Assembly: GCA_964641035.1 (NCBI GenBank)
Contig: CAZXJU010000002.1
Span: 1-31,259, forward strand
Length of the DNA: 31,259 nt
Direction of reading: 5' to 3'
Source of the DNA: an uncultured Halobacteriales archaeon
Lineage (GTDB): Archaea > Thermoplasmatota > E2 > JACPAO01
Each line of letters begins with the position of its first letter. Position 1 is the stretch's first letter. The position numbers were made by a program, and so were the translations under genes. The notes under the pieces are model-generated. The model searched no databases and was not told the DNA's origin. It saw only the letters and a list, made by a program, of their open reading frames with translations. Shown in pieces: positions 1,111-20,867 of this stretch.

Positions 1111-1152
1111 TTGGACAAAGGTTTTACATAGTTTAGTGGAGTGTTTGGTGGT

Positions 1153-2595
1153 ATGGACCTTGATCCGCTGCGCGACTGGAACCCCCACTGGTACGGCGGT
1201 CCTCTCTCGCCCCGCATTCTAAAACATCCGCGCCCGCGCGCAATGGTCGAACCGTGGTTGGACGACGTGCTCGACCCGCAGGATGACCTGTGGGCCCTTA
1301 AGCCGGGGCCACGGCAGGTCGGGAAGACCACAAGTCTGGGCCACGTGGCGAGGCTTCTTTTGGACCGTCACGCAATCGAACCGCGCCGGGTCACGTTTGC
1401 TCCACTGGACGACGAATCGATCCAGGAGGCCAGCGGCGGCCGGTTGGAGGCCATCGTGGAGGCGACGACATCGTTGGCCGCGCCGGCTCCAGGCAAGGCG
1501 AATTTCTTGCTGCTCGACGAGGTCCAAGCGTTCCCGAACTGGTCGGCCCAGCTCAAGACGGCATGGGACCGGCACCATCGGCACATCCGGGTGCTTGCGA
1601 CGGGGTCGAGCGCGTTGCGGCTCCTCAGGCCGGTGGAAGCCGACTTCCACGGGCGTCTCCGGACCGTTCACGTGCACCCGATGAAGTTCCGCGAGGTGCT
1701 ACTGGCACGCCCCGACGTGGACAGACACGTGGACAGCGATACGACCGATGCGTTGTGGGCGCATGTCAAGGAATGCCGGCGGGCACTCCCGGATGGGCAC
1801 GGAGCGTTCGCCAGGGCGCTCGCGGAGTTTTATGGATTCGTCGTAGCGCGGGGTCTTTCCGACATCGTGAAGCAGACATGGCTGGAGTATTGCGCCTGGG
1901 GTGGATACCCTGCGACGCGACCCGGTGTGGACCTTTCGCCCGCGCAACGTCTGGACCGGATGGAAGCCGCGTTGAACACGGTGCTCGCTCGCGACGTGGT
2001 GGCTGGCGGCGTCCGGAAGCTACGTGAGTTCCGCCTTCTGCTTCGCCACATCGCCGTGAACCCCGGCGGCAAGTTCGAACCGTTCGGCGTCGGTCGCCGC
2101 CTGGATACGGAGGGCGAGACGATCAGGGAATGGAAGCAGATCCTGGAGGACGTGATGGTCGTCCATCAACTCGGCCCGTTGAAGCCGGACCTTCGGGCGG
2201 CCCGGAGCCGCGACAAGGCGTACCCGATGGACCCCGCATGGACCAGCTATTTTCGCGGGCACGCCCTTCCGGCGGTGGACGCCGATGATCCTGCGCTTGG
2301 ACCGATCGCCGAGTCGGTGCTTGTCGACCACGCCCGTCGGCTCCAGTTCAACGTGACGGGCGCGTCGGGCCTGCCCGTGGGGTACGTCGCGCGCCCGGAA
2401 GTGGATGTCGCGTTCGCCGTCGGCCCGCGATGGGTGCTCTTGGAGTCCAAACAGAGCCGGAACCCTCAGGCCCGGCTTCAGGGGGTGGGCCCCCGCGACG
2501 CGGTCCGTGTGCTGGCGACCCGCGACGACTTCGACGTCGGGGATCCGGGGCAGGCAATCTTTGTGCCTGCCGCCGTGTTCGCCCTCGTATGCTGA
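1153..2595 (+). CDS. ATP-binding protein, AAA_14 + DUF4143 type (COG1373-like)
   Basis: Walker A GPRQVGKTT, Walker B LLLDEVQ, TGSS and GGYP motifs, C-terminal EVDVAF..LLESK nuclease-like motif. ATG 1153 preferred over GTG 1141. Confidence 0.85.
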   Translation: MDLDPLRDWNPHWYGGPLSPRILKHPRPRAMVEPWLDDVLDPQDDLWALKPGPRQVGKTTSLGHVARLLLDRHAIEPRRVTFAPLDDESIQEASGGRLEAIVEATTSLAAPAPGKANFLLLDEVQAFPNWSAQLKTAWDRHHRHIRVLATGSSALRLLRPVEADFHGRLRTVHVHPMKFREVLLARPDVDRHVDSDTTDALWAHVKECRRALPDGHGAFARALAEFYGFVVARGLSDIVKQTWLEYCAWGGYPATRPGVDLSPAQRLDRMEAALNTVLARDVVAGGVRKLREFRLLLRHIAVNPGGKFEPFGVGRRLDTEGETIREWKQILEDVMVVHQLGPLKPDLRAARSRDKAYPMDPAWTSYFRGHALPAVDADDPALGPIAESVLVDHARRLQFNVTGASGLPVGYVARPEVDVAFAVGPRWVLLESKQSRNPQARLQGVGPRDAVRVLATRDDFDVGDPGQAIFVPAAVFALVC

Positions 2596-6031: not shown

Positions 6032-6598
6032 TCAGCAGGCGGCCCAGTTTAGGAAGGTGGCGTGGTGGATGACGGCGTTCGCCAGCGTGTCTTGGATCTC
6101 GATCTTGATGTCGGTCATGTCTGCGGATGCGGGGCTGCTGCAGAAGGCGAGGAAATCGTCGGACGCCATGGGCGCGCCGTTTGGGGAGATCGGCACAAAC
6201 GTGCCGGGGCCGCACGAGGTGCCTGTGGCGGCGGCCGTGTTGAGGGGGCCGCCGGTCGCGTCCGCAAGGCGGTTCTGGTAGGGTGCGGGGTCGGTGCCGA
6301 GGCGGCCGATGGCGCCGGAGCCGTCGCCCTGGTTGCAGGCGGCCACTCGTACGGCGAGGCGGGACCAGTCGGCGTTCTGAGCGGCGGAGACGACGACGAT
6401 GCGGTCTTGTGGGTCGTCGAGTTGCCAGGAGACCGCGGGCGCTGATTCCGTGGCGGTTCCGCCAAACTGGCTCACGAGCAGGAGGACAGTGGCTGCCAGG
6501 ACGATGGTGAGGGCCACCATGAGGATGGTCGAGATGATCGGGGACGCGGCGGATCCGCTGGCGTGGAATCTGCCGAATCGTCGGAGATGAAGCTTCAC
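6032..6598 (-). CDS. Archaeal type IV pilin-like protein (Pilin_N/DUF1628 type)
   Basis: Class III signal-like ...SGSA|ASPIISTILMVALTIVLAATV. It shares the DRxxV..A..xAxW, DF/YxxFC and terminal Cys motifs with the three neighbours. Confidence 0.8.
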   Translation of the reverse strand: MKLHLRRFGRFHASGSAASPIISTILMVALTIVLAATVLLLVSQFGGTATESAPAVSWQLDDPQDRIVVVSAAQNADWSRLAVRVAACNQGDGSGAIGRLGTDPAPYQNRLADATGGPLNTAAATGTSCGPGTFVPISPNGAPMASDDFLAFCSSPASADMTDIKIEIQDTLANAVIHHATFLNWAAC

Positions 6599-6721
6599 GA
6601 TCGTCCCTTGCCTTGTCGTACGCCGACTCCCCCATCGGGGCCGGGCCGCGTAGGTGTGAAAAAATGGTGTTGGTAAAAGGAGGTATCGATGGCAAGGCGT
6701 TTCGGACGCTCGACCGGTTGA

Positions 6722-7222
6722 TCAACAGGGTCGGATGTCGTTGAAGGTCCATGTGCCGAGGCGGACATTGGCTTCGGCGTCGTACACGGAGACGGCGACG
6801 CCGGCCGCGGTTCCATCGGCGCAGAACTCGAGGAAGTCGTTGCCCAGGATGCGCGTGGCGTCTTCGGAAGCGGCGACGCGTTGGCCGAGGAGTTGGCCGC
6901 CGGTCGCGGCGGCCGCGTCGTTGACCACGGTGGAACCGGTGCCGACGTAGAGGGCGGTCGCGGAGCCGCTTTGGATGGTGGCCTGGAGTTGGATGCGGTT
7001 CCAGTAGGCCCCGTCGACGGCGGACGCGACGACCAGGCGGTCCCGGTCCTCATCCTTGGTGAATCCGACGGCCGGTGCGGCATCTGAACGCTCGGAGGCA
7101 AGGATTTGGATAATGACGAAGGCGCCAGCGGCCAGACCGAGGACGACGGCCACGAGCAGGATGGTTGCGACGACGGCGGTCAAGCCGTCCTCGTCGGTGG
7201 CGAGATTCCAGCGGAGCGACAT
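6722..7222 (-). CDS. Archaeal type IV pilin-like protein
   Basis: MSLRWNLATDEDG|LTAVVATILLVAVVLGLAAGAF; TTATAT box about 30 nt upstream (7253-7258). Confidence 0.8.
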   Translation of the reverse strand: MSLRWNLATDEDGLTAVVATILLVAVVLGLAAGAFVIIQILASERSDAAPAVGFTKDEDRDRLVVASAVDGAYWNRIQLQATIQSGSATALYVGTGSTVVNDAAAATGGQLLGQRVAASEDATRILGNDFLEFCADGTAAGVAVSVYDAEANVRLGTWTFNDIRPC

Positions 7223-7311
7223 TGCGTATCGGCCCGGCTTCTGCCGGATGAGATATAATGGACTTCCCCATGGCGATTAAGTAGGCGTGGCGCGGGGGTG
7301 GAGACGGCCGG

Positions 7312-7815
7312 TCAGCAGGCGGCGATGTCGTTGAAGTGCCACGTTCCGAGGCGCGTGTTTGCCTCCGAGTCGAAGACGGAGACACGGACCTGGGTCGTTG
7401 TAGAATCGGCGCAAAATTCTACGTAATCCGGAGCGGAAACCGGGTGAGAGGAAGTCGCTAATTGCACCCGGCCGGCTAGCAGGTCGCCACCCGTCGCGGA
7501 CGCGTCTTCATTCATGTATGGTTCGGCGGTCCCCACATGGATGGTCGTGGCGAACCCGCCATTGTCGACGGCAGACAGCTGAATCATGTTCCAATCGGCG
7601 TCCTGGACGGCGGTCGACACAACAAGCCGATCGACCTCTTCATCCACGGTAAAGCCGACGGACGGTGCCGAATCCGCCTGCTCCTCCATTAGTAGTTTCC
7701 ATGCCAAGAAAACCCCGGTTACGATTCCGATGACGATTGCGACCAGGATGATTGTGCCCACGACGGCCGTCATCGCATCACATGATTTTCGGAAGCCGCC
7801 CTCGATTTCCGTCAC
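7312..7815 (-). CDS. Archaeal type IV pilin-like protein
   Basis: Start reassigned to GTG 7815, giving MTEIEGGFRKSCDA|MTAVVGTIILVAIVIGIVTGVF; TTTTAAA box about 37 nt upstream (7852-7859); paralog of 6722..7222. Confidence 0.75.
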   Translation of the reverse strand: MTEIEGGFRKSCDAMTAVVGTIILVAIVIGIVTGVFLAWKLLMEEQADSAPSVGFTVDEEVDRLVVSTAVQDADWNMIQLSAVDNGGFATTIHVGTAEPYMNEDASATGGDLLAGRVQLATSSHPVSAPDYVEFCADSTTTQVRVSVFDSEANTRLGTWHFNDIAAC

Positions 7816-7962
7816 GATGTACCCACAGCAAAGGGAAATTTTGGCACGGCGTTTAAAAAGATGTGTAAGTAGCCCGTTCTGAAGGTATCGCCGCCCGACA
7901 TGAAACAAGTGTCGTAACTGGCGGCGAGGGAAGGCTGCAATCCGTAACCTCTAGTCTACTTT

Positions 7963-7988
7963 GAAAAGGAGAAGAAGGGAAGAGGAGA
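7963..7988 (-). terminator. Pyrimidine/T-rich archaeal terminator after the pilin at 7999..8562
   Basis: The minus strand reads CTCCTCTTCCCTTCTTCTCCTTTTC just after the stop codon. Confidence 0.5.
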
Positions 7989-7998
7989 TTCGACCGGC

Positions 7999-8562
7999 CT
8001 ACGAGCAGTCCGCAACGTCCGTAAACGTGTACGTGTGGACGATTGCGTTGGCGGTCGTGTCCCGAATCTGGATTTCCACGTTGTCTACGGGCCCTGCGAG
8101 CGCGTCGTCAACGCAGAATTCCAGGAAGTCTCCGGCCTCAATGCGGTCAGCGGCGTCAGACACCTGTACGGCCGTACCGGTACACGACGATGCACCAACG
8201 GTACCAACATCATCGCCGGGAGCCAGGGCTGGCTTAGAGTGATGAGAACTGTCGGCTGCCGCGGAACCCAAGCTGATTGCGGATGCCGTGGTGCCGTCGT
8301 CAGCACCGCTGCAGCTGACCGCGGAAACCGTCAACCGGTTCCAATCGGCGTTCTGCCCGGCCTGGTTCACGCTCAGGCGGTCTTGCCCCTCGTCCGCGCT
8401 GAACGAGATGCTCGGCGCGGCCGAGCCCGTTTGTCCGCCGATGTCGCTTACCAGCACGAAGACGGTCGCAGCCAAGACCACCGTAATCGCCACCATCAAG
8501 ATGACGGCGATCACAGGGGAGACGGCTTCCTCCTCCGTGACAAATTTTCGGTTTGCTTTCAT
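7999..8562 (-). CDS. Archaeal type IV pilin (canonical Pilin_N/DUF1628; likely the major pilin)
   Basis: MKANRKFVTEEEA|VSPVIAVILMVAITVVLAATVFVLV matches the archaeal pilin consensus. Confidence 0.9.
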   Translation of the reverse strand: MKANRKFVTEEEAVSPVIAVILMVAITVVLAATVFVLVSDIGGQTGSAAPSISFSADEGQDRLSVNQAGQNADWNRLTVSAVSCSGADDGTTASAISLGSAAADSSHHSKPALAPGDDVGTVGASSCTGTAVQVSDAADRIEAGDFLEFCVDDALAGPVDNVEIQIRDTTANAIVHTYTFTDVADCS

Positions 8563-8785: not shown

Positions 8786-10483
8786 ATGCGCGCCCAGGCC
8801 GTCCTCCTTCTTGCACTCATGATCGCCGCGCCGCTGGCCATGGCCCAGAACGACTGGCCACAATACGGCCGCGACGCCACCCACCAAAGCGCCGTCCCCA
8901 CCAACCAGAACAGCGAATTCGAACCGTTCCTCGAACGCTGGTGGAACAACGTCTCCATCTCCGCCAAACCCGGATCCCCGGTCGCCTTCGACAACATCGT
9001 CTACGTCGGCGACGCCGACGGCAACCTCCACGCCTTCGACCGCGAAAGCGGCGGCCCCCTATGGACCGTCGAAGTCGCCGGCAACGCCGTCATCGAGGGC
9101 GCCCCCGCCGCCGGCGAAGAAGCCGTCTACGTGCTCGCCCGCACCGGCTCGATCTACGCCTTCGACCCCGACGACGGCAGCCCCGTCACCGGCTTCCCCC
9201 TCTCCACCGCCAGCCCCGCCTCCGGCTCCGTCCTCTTCCACAGCCAACAGAACCTCGTCATCGGCGCCGGCGGCGCCACCATCCGCTCCTACATCGCCGA
9301 CACCCAGGAACAGAAATGGACCTTCAGCGCCTCCGGCCTCTTCGTCGGAAACGCGACCAGCGGCATCAACTGCCCCGGCGGCACGATCGTCGGCACCCCC
9401 GTCATCTTCGAGAACCTCGTCTTCTTCGGATCCACCAACAAGTGCTTCTTCGCACTCGACAACCAAGCCTTCGGCACGATCTCCGCCACCGGCAATGCGC
9501 CGAACAAGCCACGATGGGTCTTCCAGGCCGACGACTCGATCCAAAGCTCGCCCGCCATCGACGTGCAGAACCGCCGCGTGCTCTTCGGCGACATCTCCGG
9601 CAACATGTACTCCATCAGCGTCGACAACAACGGCAAGGTCTCCACGGCCACATGGAAGTACACCGAACCGCTCGTCGGCAACCTGCCCTCCGAGTTCCGC
9701 GCCGGCGCCGCCATCGTCGACGACCGCGCGATCGTCGCCTCACGAAACGGCAAGGTCAACGCCCTGTCGTTGACCAACGGCGCCAAACTCTGGACCCAGG
9801 CAAGCGACCTCGGCGGCGAGATCGTGGGCACCCCCGCCGTCGCCGACGGCAAGATCCTCGTCGGCACCCGCACCGGCACCGCCGGCACCATGTACATGCT
9901 CAACGTCACCGACGGCGGCATCATCGACCAACGGCCCGCACTCGACAAGATCTCCGCCACCCCCATCATCCTCGGAACCCAAGGCATCTGGGCCAGCGAA
10001 GACGGCACCTTACACTCCTTCGGAGGCCAGAAACCCGCCCGCGCCGACCTCGCCGTCATCAGCCTTTCGCCGACGAGCATGATCAGCGGCCAGGCCACCA
10101 CGATCAGCGGCACGATACGAAACCAGGGCGAACTCGACGCACCCGCCACCGTCGTCTCCATCATCGTCGGCAGCCAACAGATCAGCGAGCAAAGCGTGAC
10201 GGCCCTCGCCGTGGATCAAACCGACTCCTTCAGCGTTTCCTACACGCCGTCGGCGGCCGGGAAACTCACCGTGACCGCGTTCGTCGACGCGGGCCGTCAG
10301 ATCCAGGAGAGCGACGAATCCAACAACGTACGCACCGTCGACGCGACCGTCACGAACCCGCCGCCGCCCGTCACCCAAGACCCGGCCAGCACGGAGAAGA
10401 CGCCGGCGCCCGGCGTCGCGCTCACGTTGTCGTTCCTGGCGCTTCTAGTGCTAGCCTTGGCGCGCCGACGCCGGGTCCGGTGA
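8786..10483 (+). CDS. Secreted PQQ-repeat beta-propeller + CARDB domain surface protein with C-terminal sorting-type anchor
   Basis: Signal peptide; DWPQYGRDATH N-terminal motif; repeated SP.....VYVG/A.D..G...W units; DLAVISL...IRNQGE...ESDESNN (CARDB); tail TPAPGV-TM-RRRRVR. Confidence 0.85.
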   Translation: MRAQAVLLLALMIAAPLAMAQNDWPQYGRDATHQSAVPTNQNSEFEPFLERWWNNVSISAKPGSPVAFDNIVYVGDADGNLHAFDRESGGPLWTVEVAGNAVIEGAPAAGEEAVYVLARTGSIYAFDPDDGSPVTGFPLSTASPASGSVLFHSQQNLVIGAGGATIRSYIADTQEQKWTFSASGLFVGNATSGINCPGGTIVGTPVIFENLVFFGSTNKCFFALDNQAFGTISATGNAPNKPRWVFQADDSIQSSPAIDVQNRRVLFGDISGNMYSISVDNNGKVSTATWKYTEPLVGNLPSEFRAGAAIVDDRAIVASRNGKVNALSLTNGAKLWTQASDLGGEIVGTPAVADGKILVGTRTGTAGTMYMLNVTDGGIIDQRPALDKISATPIILGTQGIWASEDGTLHSFGGQKPARADLAVISLSPTSMISGQATTISGTIRNQGELDAPATVVSIIVGSQQISEQSVTALAVDQTDSFSVSYTPSAAGKLTVTAFVDAGRQIQESDESNNVRTVDATVTNPPPPVTQDPASTEKTPAPGVALTLSFLALLVLALARRRRVR

Positions 10484-11323
10484 CACCGACTCCGAAGCAC
10501 CACCGCCGCGCGACGGCGCGACATCAAGACGTTCCGGGCAGCCGTGGCGCCTCGCGCACCCCGCGCACCGCGCCTTCGACCGGTGGTCCCGATGCGCCTC
10601 GCCCGTCCGCTCGGCCAACTGGATCCGAAGAAGCGTACGCACCAACTCGTCCTCCACCCGGTCCGAAAACGGCACCTCGAACTTCTCCTCAGGATACTCG
10701 ATGATGCCGTGCTCCGGCCGCGTGCCCGTCTCCGACTCGATGAGGTGACAGTACGCGGCCAACTGCAGGACGTGGCTGTCGTACGGCCGTTTCGGCGTCC
10801 GACCCGATTTCACCTCGACCGGCACCGGCCGGCCGTCGCGCTCGACCACGTAATCCGGCCGGCCCTCCAACGGCAACGTCTTGCTCACCAACACCTCCGG
10901 CCGGCCCGACTCGGTGTCCACGTACGCCACGTCCCCGCGCACCACGCGCGCGGACCGGCCCAACGCGTCGGCGCGGCCACGGAAGAACAAGTGGAACGCC
11001 AACAGGTACATCGCGCCCGCGCACCACAAGACCGACAAGAAGACGAGTAACCAGTAGACGCCCGTCGCCGCCTCCAAGAAGAGAAGCTCGATCCCCAGCA
11101 CCGCCGCGCCGATCGTAAGGAGCGCCAACAAGAAGGCGGTCTCGATGCTGAAGACGGCGTCGCGCTGCAACGACCCGATCCGGTCGACGCGCTCCGAGCG
11201 TTCCCGATGCGTCCGGACGCCGCCGCTGCCGCCGACGCCTTCGGTCCCCTCCTTCGCCCGCTGCCAATTGAGGGGGCAATACACGAACCGGTCGATGTCA
11301 CCGGCCGCGATCCGGTCAGACAC
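10451..11323 (-). CDS. Solo Cas4-like PD-(D/E)XK nuclease with two inserted transmembrane helices
   Basis: YCP (Cys1), GxxxH, GRPDY, EVKSG, QLAAY and C-terminal CAGCARRHGC (3 Cys). Two hydrophobic segments lie at about aa 61-83 and 89-114. No cas1/cas2 or array in the window. Confidence 0.8.
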   Translation of the reverse strand: MSDRIAAGDIDRFVYCPLNWQRAKEGTEGVGGSGGVRTHRERSERVDRIGSLQRDAVFSIETAFLLALLTIGAAVLGIELLFLEAATGVYWLLVFLSVLWCAGAMYLLAFHLFFRGRADALGRSARVVRGDVAYVDTESGRPEVLVSKTLPLEGRPDYVVERDGRPVPVEVKSGRTPKRPYDSHVLQLAAYCHLIESETGTRPEHGIIEYPEEKFEVPFSDRVEDELVRTLLRIQLAERTGEAHRDHRSKARCAGCARRHGCPERLDVAPSRGGGASESVSPDPASARQG

Positions 11324-11423: not shown

Positions 11424-11756
11424 TCAAACGAGGGCGTTCTGGATGACCTGACGGACTTTCAAAAGCGTGCCTTGCGTCACCCGACCCGCCCGGTCACGGA
11501 GACTCGCCACGTCGTCCGACACCATGATTTCCGGCACGACGACGGAGCCGGCGTCATTCAGTCCTCCTTCTTGGAACGCGGGCTCGACCGTCGTCCACTA
11601 CGCCTTGGGCGTGGTGGTGAACGAAACGACGATGACGACGCCGGTCAGCGCGGTCACGCCGGCCCGTGAGACGACGAGCACGGGTCGGCGCTTGGTGCCG
11701 CCGCCCTGAAGCGGGAAATCCATCCAGTAGACCTCGCCAGGCTCCGGGTTCGCCAC
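11424..11756 (-). pseudogene. MazF/PemK-family toxin, 110 codons, interrupted by an in-frame TAG at codon 53
   Basis: Hand translation: MANPEPGEVYWMDFPLQGGGTKRRPVLVVSRAGVTALTGVVIVVSFTTTPKA*WTTVEPAFQEGGLNDAGSVVVPEIMVSDDVASLRDRAGRVTQGTLLKVRQVIQNALV. TAG is at 11600-11598. The GTG start overlaps the upstream gene's stop (TAGTG). Absent from the ORF track. Confidence 0.8.
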
Positions 11757-12175
11757 TAGCCTTCCGCCTGGTCAAGCAGCCGGCCGGCCGAGGCGCGGCT
11801 TGCGTACAATAGTTCCGACTGCTCGCGTTCCGCCTCGGCCTCCATGTATTCCTCGAGTGCCGCCCGCGGCGCGAACACACGGTGTTCGTCGTCGAGGAAG
11901 TATCCACGGTGATGCCGTCGAAGGATCTCCAGGTGGCGCGCGACCGTCCGAGGATCCTTCTTCGCAGCCGCGGCAATCTTGCTCACGTGGACCGCGGGCG
12001 CGCCCGGCTTGGACAAACGGCGGACCGCCCGAACGACCGCCTGGTGGACTCGCAGCGACTTCTCGGCCCGGGGCGACGACAAGGCGACTTCGACCTCGGA
12101 CGGCGTCAACGGCCCCTTGTCGCGGGGCCCGTTCCTGGATGCGACCCGTTTCCCCTTCTTCGCCATCTCCATCAT
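11756..12175 (-). CDS. wHTH protein, putative antitoxin/regulator of the MazF-like gene
   Basis: Likely start ATG 12175, 12172 or 12166. HTH-like VSKIAAAAKKDPRTVARHLEIL and acidic helical tail ALEEYMEAEAEREQSE; 1-nt overlap with the toxin start. Confidence 0.6.
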   Translation of the reverse strand: MMEMAKKGKRVASRNGPRDKGPLTPSEVEVALSSPRAEKSLRVHQAVVRAVRRLSKPGAPAVHVSKIAAAAKKDPRTVARHLEILRRHHRGYFLDDEHRVFAPRAALEEYMEAEAEREQSELLYASRASAGRLLDQAEG

Positions 12176-14189: not shown

Positions 14190-14591
14190 TTAGCCGGATT
14201 CCCCCGCCACCACGGAATCGGCCCATGCGACGAGGCGCCGGGCCCGTTTCGTGGCCACCTCGGCCTCGTGCGCCTCGTACTCCCGCGCCTCGTACTCGAT
14301 GAGGTTCTTGTCGCGGATCAAACGCACGAACTGCTCCGCGCGGTCGTCCGCGTCGTCGAGCCCAGTTCGCCGCACGAGCTGGGAAGAGCGCTCGTGGTCG
14401 GCGTCGCGCGACCGTTCCCCCAGCATCCACGTCGTCACGGCGTCGACGGCCGAGATCCCGGCGTGGACCGCGCCAAGGCCCGCGGCGTTCCAGTCACCGC
14501 CTGAAAGCGAGGCCTCGGCGGCACGCAGGAACTCCGTCGATTTCCGGAGATAGACGTGGGATTTGCGTGCAGGAAGTCGTTTGACCCTCAT
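14190..14591 (-). CDS. HEPN domain protein (toxin partner of an MNT-HEPN module)
   Basis: Helical 133 aa protein: KSTEFLRAAEASL..GDWNAAGLGAVHAGISAVDA...KNLIEY. ATGA overlap with the upstream MNT gene. Confidence 0.8.
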   Translation of the reverse strand: MRVKRLPARKSHVYLRKSTEFLRAAEASLSGGDWNAAGLGAVHAGISAVDAVTTWMLGERSRDADHERSSQLVRRTGLDDADDRAEQFVRLIRDKNLIEYEAREYEAHEAEVATKRARRLVAWADSVVAGESG

Positions 14592-17463: not shown

Positions 17464-18441
17464 CTACTCGGGCGCGCCTTCCCGACCATCTCGCTTGCCA
17501 TGGGGATGCATCGCGCGCCACAAGGCAGCGGGATGGCGGTCGATGCCATCGGCCACCGGGATGTCGCCGAACAGCAGGTCAGGTTCGTGGCGCCCCCGTT
17601 CGAGTTCCAGCCCATATTTGATCTCGTCGTCGCTCCTCTCCAGCATCGCCTCGACCCGGGGAAGGACGGCAGCCTGAAGGTCCCGGGCCGTAGGAACGCC
17701 TTGCGCTCGGAGCATGGGGTGCAGGTGGGTGGCCAGGTCGTCGTCCGTCACCGCCCGAGTGTGGTCCAGGTCGACGAGGTCGAGCGTGGCGTCGTCCATA
17801 TGGCAGTGAAAAAGGAACGCGGCGCGGAGCATACGATCGTCAGGATGGACGTGCCCGTCGAAAAGGCGCGCGGCGTCGAACAGGTCCCTCGGATGGCCCC
17901 GGGCCACGAGAGCCTTGAGCTTCCCGCCGTAGACCTCCTCGGCGCGGAGCGCCGGCACGTGGGCCGCGTCGAGCTCGAACACCTCCGGCAGGTCGTGTTC
18001 CAAGAATCCGTACAATGAAAGGCGCATCAGGTAATTGATGTCGGCCCGGATGCTGTCCCGGTGACCATGGACGTTCGTGTAGCGAAATCGCAGCTTCCGG
18101 TGCGCGTGCGAGCGCGGACGCGGATCCCACTCGTACCCAAGGCTGTGCGTGAGGGCGCCGAGCTCGGCTTCGACCTCGTCGCGCTCCGCGACCATGGTGT
18201 CCCTGTCGAGGCTGCCGACGTAGTTGAGGTCCATATCGACGCTGAGGCGCGGCAGGTCGTCGTAGAAGAAGTTGATGCAGGTGCCACCCTTCAGGACGAG
18301 GCGTTCCCGGAGCCAGGGGTGTTCACCAATCCCCCGGAGCACCCTCGCAAGTCGGTACGCGCGCTCGAACTCCACGACAACGAAGCCCTCGTCACGGGCA
18401 GTGCGCTGAAGCCAGTCGGCGTCGATGTGTTCGTCAGGCAG
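17464..18441 (-). CDS. AbiEii-family nucleotidyltransferase toxin (type IV TA)
   Basis: LVLKGGTCINFFY..LPRLSVDMDL, K..AL..R..PRDLFD. The frame is open 22 codons upstream of GTG 18375, to CTG 18441, which has a GGTGA SD and overlaps the antitoxin stop. Confidence 0.88.
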   Translation of the reverse strand: MPDEHIDADWLQRTARDEGFVVVEFERAYRLARVLRGIGEHPWLRERLVLKGGTCINFFYDDLPRLSVDMDLNYVGSLDRDTMVAERDEVEAELGALTHSLGYEWDPRPRSHAHRKLRFRYTNVHGHRDSIRADINYLMRLSLYGFLEHDLPEVFELDAAHVPALRAEEVYGGKLKALVARGHPRDLFDAARLFDGHVHPDDRMLRAAFLFHCHMDDATLDLVDLDHTRAVTDDDLATHLHPMLRAQGVPTARDLQAAVLPRVEAMLERSDDEIKYGLELERGRHEPDLLFGDIPVADGIDRHPAALWRAMHPHGKRDGREGAPE

Positions 18442-19213
18442 ATCCGCTCACCGCCGGCGCGTGCGCGGGCACGATGACCTGCCAGTCGGGCTCGCTCCGC
18501 CCTCCACGGTTGGGCTTGACGCCGAAGTACGTGGTCCCCGTACCGAGCTTGGCCCTGAGTTCGCGGCGGACCGCGTCCGGCAGCCGCCAGCTGTCCGCAT
18601 TCGCGGCCACGAGGTAGCCGACCTTGCGATACAGTACCGTCTTGCCATAGATGGCGAGCAGGTCGAGCAGCCTGCCCCAATCGACGTAGGGGAAACCGCT
18701 CACGCTGGCGAGCACCTCCGGCAGGCCGCCGGCGTACTCGAGACGGTCCGCACATTGAATCAAAGCCAGCTCGCGGCACGCCACGTGGAGCGTGCCGCCG
18801 CTGCGCTTGGTGGTCGAGCGGCCCGCGTCGAGCACTTCCATGTCAATGGCGACGGGGTGGAACGCTTGGCGGTTCCACGTGAACGGGGTGAAGCGTGTGG
18901 GGGCGGCGACGTACACGGAGTGGAAGAAGGCCGACTCAGCGACGCCGTTGAGTTCGAGCGCGGTGTGGTAGGAAAAAAGGTAGGGTTCTACGACCTTGCT
19001 GGCCACGACCAGCGGGTCGGGTGAATCCGATCCGGCGCGTTCGGGGACGAGCACGTAGAGGCCTCGCCGGACGCGCTCGACGTAGCCCCGGTCCAGGAGA
19101 TACTTGACCTGCTTCCACGTGGCCTCGCGGTCCTCCCCCGTCACGGCCACAGCCTCATCCATCGTAAAGCACGCGGGTGTCTGGAAGGCCTCCACGAGGC
19201 GAGGGCGAGGCAT
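18434..19213 (-). CDS. AbiEi-family antitoxin / transcriptional regulator
   Basis: N-terminal wHTH (YLLDRGYVERVRRGLY) and LFSYHTALELNG motif; directly upstream of the AbiEii gene; ATG 19213 preferred. Confidence 0.85.
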   Translation of the reverse strand: MPRPRLVEAFQTPACFTMDEAVAVTGEDREATWKQVKYLLDRGYVERVRRGLYVLVPERAGSDSPDPLVVASKVVEPYLFSYHTALELNGVAESAFFHSVYVAAPTRFTPFTWNRQAFHPVAIDMEVLDAGRSTTKRSGGTLHVACRELALIQCADRLEYAGGLPEVLASVSGFPYVDWGRLLDLLAIYGKTVLYRKVGYLVAANADSWRLPDAVRRELRAKLGTGTTYFGVKPNRGGRSEPDWQVIVPAHAPAVSGSA

Positions 19214-19230
19214 TGTCTTCAAGCACGAGT

Positions 19231-19333
19231 AACCTCCCATGCATTTAGAGGTTTCTCTATTCAATCGATAAGAAAACTAAGGTGAGATGTTACTATCTCT
19301 TCATCAGAGAAACCTCCAACGTTTTAGGAGGTT
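19231..19333. promoter_or_regulatory. Two AACCTC-N11-GAGGTT palindromes in the abiE promoter
   Basis: Located at 19231-19253 and 19311-19333, 80 bp apart, in an AT-rich stretch. GAGGTTTCTCT (19248-19258) is also the reverse complement of AGAGAAACCTC (19306-19316). Confidence 0.6.
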
Positions 19334-19598: not shown

Positions 19599-20867
19599 AT
19601 GCCAAATCTTCGAGAGGCGCTGGTGGAACGCAACCCGTGGTGGAAAGGCGAATTCCAGGTCGCGTACCGACCACGACGAATCTACGACCGCCTCCAGAAA
19701 TTCCAGGACCACCGCCAGATCATCGCCCTCACCGGGCTACGCCGCGTCGGAAAGACCACCCTTCTCCTCAAACTCGTCCAAGACGCCCTCGACGGCGGCA
19801 CGGAACCCCAAGCGATCCTCTACTTCGCATTCGACGAATTCCCCGACGCCGACCTCCGTGAGGTACTACGCACGTACGCCGACCTGTTCGACCGCGACCT
19901 CCGAAACGACCACCACCTCATCCTCCTCGACGAAATCCAGAAAGTCGAAGGCTGGCAAGACCAACTGAAGGCGCTCTACGACACGTACGACCACCTGAAG
20001 TTCATCGTCTCCGGCTCCGAGTCCCTCTTCATCCGACAGGGAGCGCGCGCCACCCTGGCCGGCCGCCTTTTCGAATTCCAAGTCGACCCGCTTACGTTCG
20101 CCGAGTACCTCGAATTCCGAAACATCCCGCACCAGCCGCGCAAGCTGCACGAGGCGGAGATCCGGCGCGCCTTCGAGGCGTACGTACCCACCCAAGGATT
20201 CCCGGAACTCGCCGAGACGCGCGACAAGGACGTCATCCGCAAGTACGTCCGCGAAAGCATCGTCGAGAAGCTCGTCTACCGGGACCTTCCGACGCTCCTT
20301 TCCCTCCGGCAACCCGGCGTCCTCGAATCGATCCTCAACATCCTCCTGGACGACCCAGGCCAGATCCTATACGCATCCGACCTCGCCGGCGAGCTCGGTG
20401 TCTCCCGCCAGACCGTCGCCGCGTACCTCTCGTATTTGGAGCAAGCGTTCCTCATCCGGAAACTGTACAACTACTCCACCGGCCCACGCAAGGTCGAACG
20501 CAAGCTCCGCAAGTACTACGCCACCGTCGCCTCCGTCGACCTCCTCTTCCGAGAGGACCCCGCCTCGCGGGGCCGCGCCCTCGAATGGGTCATCGTCAAC
20601 CAATTGCGCGCCGAATACTTCTGGCGCGACGCGCAAAAGAACGAGGTCGACATCGTCGTCGCCGGCGACCCACCGCTCCCAATCGAGGTCAAGTCCGGAC
20701 GCGTCCGGACGCGCGGCATCGAAGCCTTCCTCCGCACGTTCGACGCGCCCCGCGGCGTCGTCGTCACACGGGACGCGGAAGCCCACCATCAGAAAGACGG
20801 ACGCACCATCGAAACGATCCCCGCGTACAAGTACCTCCTTCGCCCACCGACAGACGACGAACGCTGA
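19599..20867 (+). CDS. ATP-binding protein, AAA_14 + DUF4143 type (COG1373-like)
   Basis: GLRRVGKTT, ILLDEIQ, VSGSES, GFPE; C-terminal NEVDIV..PIEVKSG. Confidence 0.9.
   Translation: MPNLREALVERNPWWKGEFQVAYRPRRIYDRLQKFQDHRQIIALTGLRRVGKTTLLLKLVQDALDGGTEPQAILYFAFDEFPDADLREVLRTYADLFDRDLRNDHHLILLDEIQKVEGWQDQLKALYDTYDHLKFIVSGSESLFIRQGARATLAGRLFEFQVDPLTFAEYLEFRNIPHQPRKLHEAEIRRAFEAYVPTQGFPELAETRDKDVIRKYVRESIVEKLVYRDLPTLLSLRQPGVLESILNILLDDPGQILYASDLAGELGVSRQTVAAYLSYLEQAFLIRKLYNYSTGPRKVERKLRKYYATVASVDLLFREDPASRGRALEWVIVNQLRAEYFWRDAQKNEVDIVVAGDPPLPIEVKSGRVRTRGIEAFLRTFDAPRGVVVTRDAEAHHQKDGRTIETIPAYKYLLRPPTDDER

What the first reader, a model, noticed from the sequence alone, without database searches (positions are those of the whole stretch)
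11424..11756. Hidden MazF/PemK toxin split by a single in-frame amber codon
A full-length 110-codon MazF-like frame is intact on both sides of one TAG (codon 53) and remains translationally coupled to its upstream partner. No other lesion is visible. Possible explanations are a recent nonsense inactivation, regulated read-through giving low toxin dose, or pyrrolysine insertion (known in Methanomassiliicoccales). TAG ends aIF5B and carS in this window, which argues against global reassignment.
Basis: partly seen in the sequence, partly recalled or inferred. Interest (0 to 1): 0.65.

Follow-up and report, generated by a model that had tools for sequence, protein, structure and literature searches.

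The report
MazF toxin gene killed by nonsense mutation
A toxin gene of a toxin-antitoxin pair in an uncultured soil archaeon was recently switched off by one base change that made a stop codon, which is ordinary gene decay and not an unusual genetic code.

Summary
On the minus strand, 11756..11424 is a 110-codon MazF/PemK frame (GTG start, TGA stop) broken only by TAG at codon 53 (window 11600..11598). Its start overlaps the TAG stop of an upstream winged-helix partner gene (TAGTG).

The TAG is real. It stands in separately assembled contigs from two soil samples, and one of these differs from the window by 5 flanking SNPs.

The only close ortholog is syntenic and 91% identical in protein. It has GAG (Glu) at that codon, so the lesion is a single G-to-T change.

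Pyrrolysine is effectively excluded:
- No PylS, PylC, PylD, MttB or McrA was found in this 86%-complete genome.
- No PylS was found in 60 relatives.
- No tRNA with anticodon CUA was found.
- TAG ends about 33% of long ORFs, including the partner gene 156 nt upstream.

No read-through signal was found.

dN/dS against the ortholog is 0.07 (0.04 before the TAG, 0.11 after it) at dS 0.46. The gene was therefore under purifying selection until very recently.

The stop removes three strands and the C-terminal helix of the MazF fold, so the product should be inactive.

Verdict: a young toxin pseudogene with its antitoxin retained. This is ordinary. The only mildly new aspect is the conserved wHTH-type partner of this small MazF subfamily.

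The parts
11424..11756 (-). MazF/PemK-family toxin gene, pseudogene: 110 codons, GTG start at 11756..11754, TGA stop at 11426..11424
   Evidence: Translation. Pfam PF02452 at E 7e-13 over profile positions 2-108 of 109. Intact ortholog P0002 is 91% identical.
11598..11600 (-). In-frame TAG at codon 53. The ortholog has GAG (Glu), so this is a single G-to-T change at the first codon base.
   Evidence: DNA alignment with L006. TAG is also in L010 from a second sample. Position 53 is Glu in the two closest relatives and variable in more distant ones.
11601..11756 (-). The 52-codon ORF that remains translatable. It covers strands 1-3 and helix 1 and holds the catalytic Arg24 and Thr47/48 equivalents.
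   Evidence: ORF list. Pfam 34.6 bits. Alignment to B. anthracis and B. cereus MazF chains 4hke and 7bxy. This 52-aa product is on record in NCBI and Logan.
11427..11597 (-). 57 codons after the TAG, no longer translated as part of MazF. They encode strands 4-6 and the C-terminal helix.
   Evidence: AlphaFold model of the ortholog (pLDDT 90.2): strands 61-64, 72-82 and 86-93, helix 95-109. dN/dS for this half is 0.108.
11756..12175 (-). Upstream partner gene, the putative antitoxin: 139 aa, winged-HTH type with an acidic C-terminal helix, intact. Its TAG stop is at 11758..11756.
   Evidence: Weak HTH hits HTH_20, HTH_5 and HTH_38. Ortholog P0004 is 87% identical. Homologous partners lie directly upstream of the MazF relatives P0007 and P0008. 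dN/dS is 0.26.
11754..11758 (-). TAGTG junction: the partner's stop codon overlaps the toxin's GTG start by one base
   Evidence: Sequence. Read-through of this TAG would add 33 residues to the partner protein.

Best explanation
This is a two-gene type II toxin-antitoxin module: a wHTH partner gene followed by a MazF endoribonuclease gene. A recent point mutation, GAG (Glu53) to TAG, knocked out the toxin gene.

Translation now ends after 52 residues. The fragment keeps the catalytic Arg and Thr positions. It lacks three of the six barrel strands and the C-terminal helix, so it should neither fold nor dimerise, and the toxin is null (inferred). The antitoxin gene is still intact.

The allele is carried by at least two closely related haplotypes in two soil samples from one study. 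The mutation is young. Apart from the stop, the gene has accumulated no excess of amino-acid changes, no frameshift and no second stop since it split from the nearest known relative.

Shown: the TAG, its presence in two assemblies, the sense codon in the ortholog, the lack of Pyl machinery, and the MazF fold. Inferred: loss of activity, and the absence of any meaningful read-through.
For: - TAG at codon 53 of a full PemK_toxin match.
- The same TAG in the X1 contig and in L010/X2, which carries 5 flanking SNPs.
- The syntenic ortholog L006 (Cas4-like and PQQ/CARDB genes downstream, same partner gene upstream on the overlapping contig L013) has GAG there.
- Nei-Gojobori dN/dS against the ortholog is 0.074 overall (0.038 before the TAG, 0.108 after it; dS 0.46). 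This is lower than for the neighbouring genes (0.135 to 0.49).
- If all 8 replacements were neutral, the neutral period would be about 7% of the path between the two lineages (95% bound about 14%).
- The model of the ortholog has pLDDT 90 and matches solved MazF structures at TM 0.73-0.81. Codon 53 lies in the loop after strand 3.
- Arg24 and Thr47/48 align with the catalytic Arg25 and Thr48 of Bacillus-type MazF (the residue roles come from the published MazF-RNA structures, from my own knowledge).
- TAG is an ordinary stop in this genome: 441 of 1317 long ORFs, including the partner gene of the same operon.
Against: - dN/dS of the part after the stop is still low (0.11). On its own this would also fit continued translation. 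The test is pairwise over a long branch, so it cannot tell 'young pseudogene' from 'still selected'.
- I could not see the base at this site in the more divergent contigs of runs X4 and X6, because the table was cut. The age and spread of the allele are therefore only loosely bounded.
- Logan contigs hide minor alleles, so a co-existing intact allele in the same population is not excluded.
- No expression or activity data exist.
Confidence: 0.86

Rival explanations
1. Leaky amber: near-cognate decoding of TAG gives a small amount of full-length MazF. The allele is then an attenuated toxin, not a dead one, and is held in check by the retained antitoxin.
For: The frame after the TAG is undamaged, with dN/dS 0.11. 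The antitoxin is intact. tRNA-Gln(CUG) and tRNA-Glu(CUC), which are near-cognate for UAG, exist in the genome.
Against: The stop is not conserved: the ortholog has GAG. No stable structure lies downstream (z -0.65) and there is no Rfam element. The same codon ends the partner gene 156 nt upstream and about a third of all genes. The intact downstream frame is fully explained by the mutation being young.
Confidence: 0.06
2. Pyrrolysine, or another amino acid, is inserted at TAG by a dedicated suppressor system.
For: The organism belongs to Thermoplasmatota, the phylum that also holds the Pyl-using Methanomassiliicoccales. The genome is only 86% complete.
Against: - There is no PylS over cut-off; the best hit is 30.6 bits against a cut-off of 178 and lies on other class II synthetases.
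- There is no PylD, PylC, MttB or McrA. PylB was not searched.
- None of 61 genomes of the same family, order and class has PylS, while the control Methanosarcina acetivorans is found.
- There is no tRNA-CUA among the 36 tRNAs.
- TAG makes up 33% of stops. Published values are 1.6-11.3% in Methanomassiliicoccales and 4-5% in Methanosarcina (PMC4153887).
- Junctions where one coding frame runs on into another across a single stop follow overall stop usage (TGA 65, TAG 41, TAA 20), with no TAG excess.
- The ortholog has Glu at this codon, not a conserved TAG.
Confidence: 0.01
3. The TAG is a sequencing or assembly error, or a minority variant that the assembler happened to pick, and the population mostly carries an intact gene.
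For: Word depth at the locus is low (about 5.5 and 7.5). Both samples that hold it come from one study. Contigs drop rare variants.
Against: Two separately assembled runs give the same base. One of them is on a haplotype with 5 SNPs relative to the window. No alternative contig covers the site in X1 or X2.
Confidence: 0.04
4. The toxin-null allele is selected, not neutral. The retained wHTH antitoxin serves as an orphan 'anti-addiction' or immunity gene, or simply as a regulator, after the toxin was disarmed.
For: The antitoxin is intact and under purifying selection (dN/dS 0.26). The window and the genome are rich in other toxin-antitoxin modules: AbiE, HEPN and two AbrB-MazE/MazF pairs.
Against: The mutation is so young that an intact antitoxin is expected anyway. 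No related intact MazF of this subfamily exists elsewhere in the genome for the antitoxin to neutralise.
Confidence: 0.1

Closest known systems
MazF/PemK (Kid, ChpBK, Bacillus MazF/EndoA/MoxT) type II toxin endoribonucleases, Pfam PF02452
   Same: Full-length profile match. The predicted fold matches solved MazF structures (5hkc, 4hke, 4mdx, 4mzt, 5ckb) at TM 0.73-0.81. Arg24 and Thr47/48 sit at the catalytic positions. The gene lies directly downstream of, and overlaps, a small DNA-binding partner gene.
   Different: The reading frame is broken at codon 53, so no full-length protein is encoded. Sequence identity to characterised MazFs is only 21-30%. The partner is a winged-HTH protein instead of an AbrB-type MazE or an RHH.
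Decaying chromosomal toxin-antitoxin cassettes with a nonsense-mutated toxin or antitoxin
   Same: A single nonsense codon in one gene of an otherwise intact pair, inherited within a lineage. Earlier notes of this scan describe several MazF genes with one in-frame TAG in other genomes, and the follow-ups judged them ordinary decay (not checked by me).
   Different: This one is in an uncultured archaeon, it is a very early stage with no second lesion, and its partner is non-canonical.
Pyrrolysine decoding of in-frame TAG in Methanomassiliicoccales and Methanosarcina (pylTSBCD; MtmB, MtbB, MttB; extra Pyl proteins in 'Ca. M. alvus', PMC4153887)
   Same: One in-frame TAG in an otherwise intact gene of an archaeon from the same phylum.
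   Different: The defining machinery was not found in the genome or in 60 relatives. TAG is a common stop in this genome. The ortholog has Glu at this codon.

Membership tests
MazF/PemK toxin (PF02452) | Sequence match to the family profile above the curated cut-off | tested here: met
   49.1 bits against a cut-off of 23.1 when read through; 34.6 bits for the first 52 codons alone. Own-genome scan: 47.5 bits with 1 TAG inside.
MazF/PemK toxin (PF02452) | SH3-like barrel plus C-terminal helix (MazF/CcdB fold) | tested here: met
   Model of the intact ortholog has pLDDT 90.2 and pTM 0.84. The top 50 PDB matches are all MazF/PemK-type toxins, with TM 0.69-0.81. This was tested on the ortholog, not on the broken gene's product.
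MazF/PemK toxin (PF02452) | Catalytic Arg and Thr/Ser (Arg25/Thr48 in B. subtilis MazF, Arg29/Thr52 in E. coli MazF) | tested here: met
   The phmmer alignment to 4hke and 7bxy puts query R24 on the RPVLV Arg and T47/T48 on the Thr. The residue roles are from my own knowledge of the published structures.
MazF/PemK toxin (PF02452) | Uninterrupted reading frame encoding the whole domain | tested here: not met
   TAG at codon 53 in the window and in L010. This is therefore a pseudogene of the family.
MazF/PemK toxin (PF02452) | Cognate antitoxin gene immediately upstream in the same operon | tested here: met
   A 139-aa partner gene overlaps the toxin start. Homologous partners lie upstream of MazF relatives in L013/L006, L094 and L095. 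Antitoxin activity itself was not tested.
MazF/PemK toxin (PF02452) | Sequence-specific endoribonuclease activity and growth arrest | not testable with these tools
   Needs expression and cleavage assays.
Pyrrolysine (amber) decoding system | Pyrrolysyl-tRNA synthetase PylS | tested here: not met
   Best own-genome hit is 30.6 bits against a cut-off of 178. 0 of 61 related genomes have it at E 1e-20; the control M. acetivorans is positive. The genome is 86% complete.
Pyrrolysine (amber) decoding system | Pyl biosynthesis genes pylB, pylC, pylD | tested here: not met
   PylD: no match. PylC: 26 bits against a cut-off of 248. PylB was not searched.
Pyrrolysine (amber) decoding system | tRNA-Pyl with anticodon CUA | tested here: not met
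   ARAGORN finds 36 tRNAs in the assembly, none with anticodon CUA and no Pyl or Sec call. tRNAs can be missing from MAGs.
Pyrrolysine (amber) decoding system | Methylamine methyltransferases with in-frame TAG, and depletion of TAG stops (archaeal users) | tested here: not met
   No MttB and no McrA. TAG makes up 33% of stops of 1317 long ORFs, against 1.6-11.3% reported for Methanomassiliicoccales (PMC4153887).
Programmed stop-codon read-through | Stop codon conserved among orthologs, with a stimulatory context or structure downstream | tested here: not met
   The ortholog has GAG. The fold of the 87 nt around and after the TAG has z -0.65. Rfam gives only chance-level hits.

The most novel reading that the evidence does not exclude
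The amber allele is not dead but leaky. Rare near-cognate decoding of UAG would yield a trickle of full-length MazF, kept in check by the retained wHTH antitoxin. That would make it a naturally attenuated toxin in a previously undescribed wHTH-MazF module of soil Thermoplasmatota.
Probability: 0.05. Interest if true: 0.45.

Novelty: new member of a known kind. Interest (0 to 1): 0.15.

Why it matters
It matters little beyond annotation. The 52-aa ORF on record should be labelled as the 5' part of a mazF pseudogene, and the in-frame TAG should not be taken as evidence for pyrrolysine or code expansion in this non-methanogenic Thermoplasmatota lineage.

It is a clean example of the earliest stage of toxin-antitoxin decay: one nonsense codon, everything else intact, and a datable sense-codon ortholog.

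The side observation has more potential. A small MazF subfamily is consistently paired with a winged-HTH partner instead of an AbrB or RHH MazE, which would be a modest addition to antitoxin diversity if confirmed.

Tried and rejected
- **Pyrrolysine.** I searched PylS, PylD, PylC, MttB and McrA in the own genome, PylS in 60 relatives and tRNAs with ARAGORN. All were negative.
- **Genome-wide TAG recoding.** Stop usage and same-frame coding-stop-coding junctions show no TAG-specific excess.
- **Read-through signal.** An RNA fold and an Rfam scan found nothing.
- **More orthologs, to date the mutation.**
  - The search for homologous proteins gave one hit.
  - Sixty relatives' genomes gave only distant MazFs.
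  - JGI metagenome contigs gave only distant hits, genome contigs gave none and plasmids gave none.
  - The exhaustive representative search gave 9 hits, of which only one is above 40% identity apart from the gene's own fragment.
- **State of the site in other studies' runs (X4, X6).** A 61-nt word search centred on the TAG found only X1 and X2. This is compatible with a different base elsewhere but does not prove it.
- **Cluster look-up of the 52-aa fragment.** It showed no further truncated variants.
- **Promoter and terminator scan.** It was uninformative; the scan uses a bacterial consensus and this is an archaeon.

Full report
**What is there**

The minus strand from 11756 to 11424 reads as 110 codons, starting at GTG and ending at TGA. 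There is a single internal stop, TAG, at codon 53 (window 11600..11598).

Read through, the product matches Pfam PemK_toxin (PF02452) over profile positions 2-108 of 109 (E 7e-13, 49.1 bits, cut-off 23.1). The first 52 codons alone score 34.6 bits. The last 57 alone fall below detection but add about 14 bits in context.

The start GTG shares its G with the TAG stop of an upstream 139-codon ORF (11756..12175, TAGTG junction).

GC by codon position (0.68/0.47/0.81) is like that of the neighbouring genes.

**Is the TAG real?**

Public soil-metagenome runs hold this locus. A 661-nt contig of run X1 is identical across the gene.

A 909-nt contig of run X2 was recovered independently as L010 (SRR12687321) by looking up the 52-aa product. 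It differs from the window at 5 positions in the flanking genes and carries the same TAG and an identical mazF.

A word search with 61 nt centred on the TAG finds all three sampled 31-mers only in X1 and X2. The stop is therefore an inherited base on at least two haplotypes, not an assembly slip.

So far it is seen only in two samples of one study. Contigs hide minor alleles, so polymorphism within the population is untested.

**What was the codon before?**

The protein database holds one close relative, P0002. It is 110 aa, uninterrupted and 91% identical.

Its contig L006 has the same downstream neighbours, a Cas4-like nuclease and a PQQ-propeller/CARDB protein. It overlaps by 30 nt the contig L013, which ends with the ortholog of the partner gene (P0004, 87% identical). 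It is a true ortholog.

At codon 53 it has GAG (Glu). One G-to-T transversion therefore accounts for the TAG.

In an alignment with the few more distant relatives, position 53 is Glu in the two closest and variable beyond them. In Bacillus-type MazF it aligns with a Lys in a loop. Nothing marks it as a special residue.

**How old is the lesion?**

Nei-Gojobori dN/dS, window against ortholog:

| Gene or part | dN/dS |
|---|---|
| mazF, whole (8 replacements, 30 silent changes, dS 0.46) | 0.074 |
| mazF, before the TAG | 0.038 |
| mazF, after the TAG | 0.108 |
| partner gene | 0.26 |
| Cas4-like gene | 0.135 |
| BNR gene | 0.27 |
| PQQ gene | 0.49 |

The difference between the two halves of mazF is not significant (Fisher p 0.26). 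MazF is the most constrained gene of the neighbourhood.

If every one of the 8 replacements had arisen neutrally after the nonsense mutation, the neutral period would still be only about 7% of the path between the two lineages (95% bound about 14%). There is no second stop and no indel.

So the gene was a working, selected toxin gene until recently. This pairwise test cannot formally separate 'very young pseudogene' from 'still translated'. The other evidence decides that.

**Recoding is not supported**

The assembly is a 2.1-Mb MAG in 305 contigs, 86% complete.

Searches for pyrrolysine machinery and related genes:
- PylS: only weak matches to other class II synthetases, 30.6 bits against a cut-off of 178.
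- PylD: no match.
- PylC: 26 bits against a cut-off of 248.
- MttB and McrA: no match.
- PylB: not searched.
- PylS in relatives: none of the 61 genomes (own genome plus 60 of its family, order and class) has PylS at E 1e-20. The control Methanosarcina acetivorans is found.
- tRNAs: ARAGORN finds 36, none with anticodon CUA.

Stop-codon usage:
- TAG ends 441 of 1317 long, high-GC3 ORFs, or 33%.
- Published values are 1.6-11.3% in Methanomassiliicoccales and 4-5% in Methanosarcina (PMC4153887).
- That paper also notes 20-30% in Pyl-decoding bacteria with regulated cassettes. The frequency alone is therefore not decisive, but together with the missing genes it is.
- Places where two coding-like stretches in one frame are separated by a single stop follow overall stop usage (TGA 65, TAG 41, TAA 20), with no TAG excess.

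Within the operon itself, TAG is the stop of the partner gene 156 nt upstream. Reading it through would add 33 residues to that protein.

The 87 nt around and after the internal TAG fold no better than shuffles (z -0.65). Rfam gives only chance-level hits.

**The organism**

aIF5B of the window is 67% identical to that of a 67%-GC groundwater MAG labelled Methanobacteriota. It is 53-55% identical to Thermoplasmata and DHVE2 MAGs, and 51% to a Methanomethylophilaceae MAG.

Together with the absence of McrA, this is a non-methanogenic, high-GC soil or groundwater Thermoplasmatota lineage. It is not a Methanomassiliicoccales methanogen.

**Consequence for the protein**

An AlphaFold model of the intact ortholog (9-sequence alignment, pLDDT 90.2, pTM 0.84) has:
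- strands at 8-15, 21-28 and 40-47, and a helix at 32-38;
- then strands at 61-64, 72-82 and 86-93, and a C-terminal helix at 95-109.

The model superposes on solved MazF toxins of M. tuberculosis, B. anthracis, B. subtilis, S. aureus and E. coli at TM 0.73-0.81.

Arg24 and Thr47/48 align with the catalytic Arg and Thr of Bacillus-type MazF.

Codon 53 lies in the loop after strand 3. The 52-residue product keeps the catalytic positions but loses half of the barrel and the C-terminal helix. I infer that it cannot fold or dimerise and that it is not toxic. This step is inference, not test.

**The module**

The partner (P0003) has only weak HTH matches (ArsR-like and HTH_20). Its protein-language look-alikes are wHTH families (DUF977, MarR, ArsR; scores 0.83-0.87, leads only).

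Homologous partner genes abut the MazF genes of two more distant relatives:
- L094, 55% identical to P0003.
- L095, 37% identical, with a weak WHD_HrcA match on record.

They share a conserved HTH core and a C-terminal helix. The wHTH-MazF pair is therefore a conserved two-gene module, seen in four loci.

The genome's two other MazF genes (contigs C169 and C10) are intact, distant, and paired with ordinary AbrB-type MazE genes.

**Verdict**

This is an ordinary, very recent nonsense knockout of a MazF toxin gene with its antitoxin retained.

| Reading | Probability |
|---|---|
| Recent nonsense knockout | about 0.86 |
| Leaky read-through | about 0.06 |
| Error or minority allele | about 0.04 |
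| Pyrrolysine | about 0.01 |

The separate idea that the toxin-null state is selected (orphan antitoxin) is compatible with the main reading. It cannot be tested here.

Earlier notes of this scan list several other MazF genes with a single in-frame TAG in other genomes, and their follow-ups judged them decay. I did not check those, and they are not used as evidence.

Noticed in passing
window 11756-12175 (-); L013:3757-4194; L094:37-351; L095:130-471: The partner of this MazF subfamily is a winged-HTH protein, not an AbrB or RHH MazE. Homologs (87%, 55% and 37% identical) sit directly upstream of MazF relatives in three other contigs, with a conserved HTH core and C-terminal helix. The window's protein and its ortholog carry an extra basic N-terminal stretch of about 45 aa.
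   Followed up: partly
L006:2-96 and L013:4192-4220, compared with window 11754-11760: In the ortholog, a 95-nt insert lies between the partner gene's last sense codon and the TAGTG junction and supplies a TAA stop. In the window the two genes overlap. The two ortholog contigs are joined only by a 30-nt graph overlap, so strain variation at this point is possible.
   Followed up: partly
window 10451-11323 (-): A Cas4-like PD-(D/E)XK nuclease (TIGR00372 at 67 bits against a cut-off of 65; Pfam Cas_Cas4 and PDDEXK_1) lies just downstream of mazF. It has a hydrophobic N-terminal part, and no CRISPR-Cas genes are in the window. It is conserved next to mazF in the ortholog contig (dN/dS 0.135).
   Followed up: partly
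window 14190-14591 (-), 17464-18375 (-), 18434-19264 (-), 1141-2595 (+), 19599-20867 (+): The window holds further toxin-antitoxin or defence-like genes: a HEPN protein, an AbiEii/AbiEi pair and two AAA_14/DUF4143 ATPases. They sit between housekeeping genes (carS, aIF5B).
   Followed up: no
G000:C169:526-915 (L003) and G000:C10:13547-13855 (L004:1474-2062): Two intact, distant MazF paralogs elsewhere in the genome. Each is preceded by an AbrB/SpoVT-type MazE-like gene.
   Followed up: partly
window 6032-8562 (-), 8786-10483 (+): A run of archaeal type IV pilin-like genes (Pilin_N) lies next to a PQQ-propeller/CARDB surface protein. The surface protein evolves fast against the ortholog (dN/dS 0.49).
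   Followed up: no
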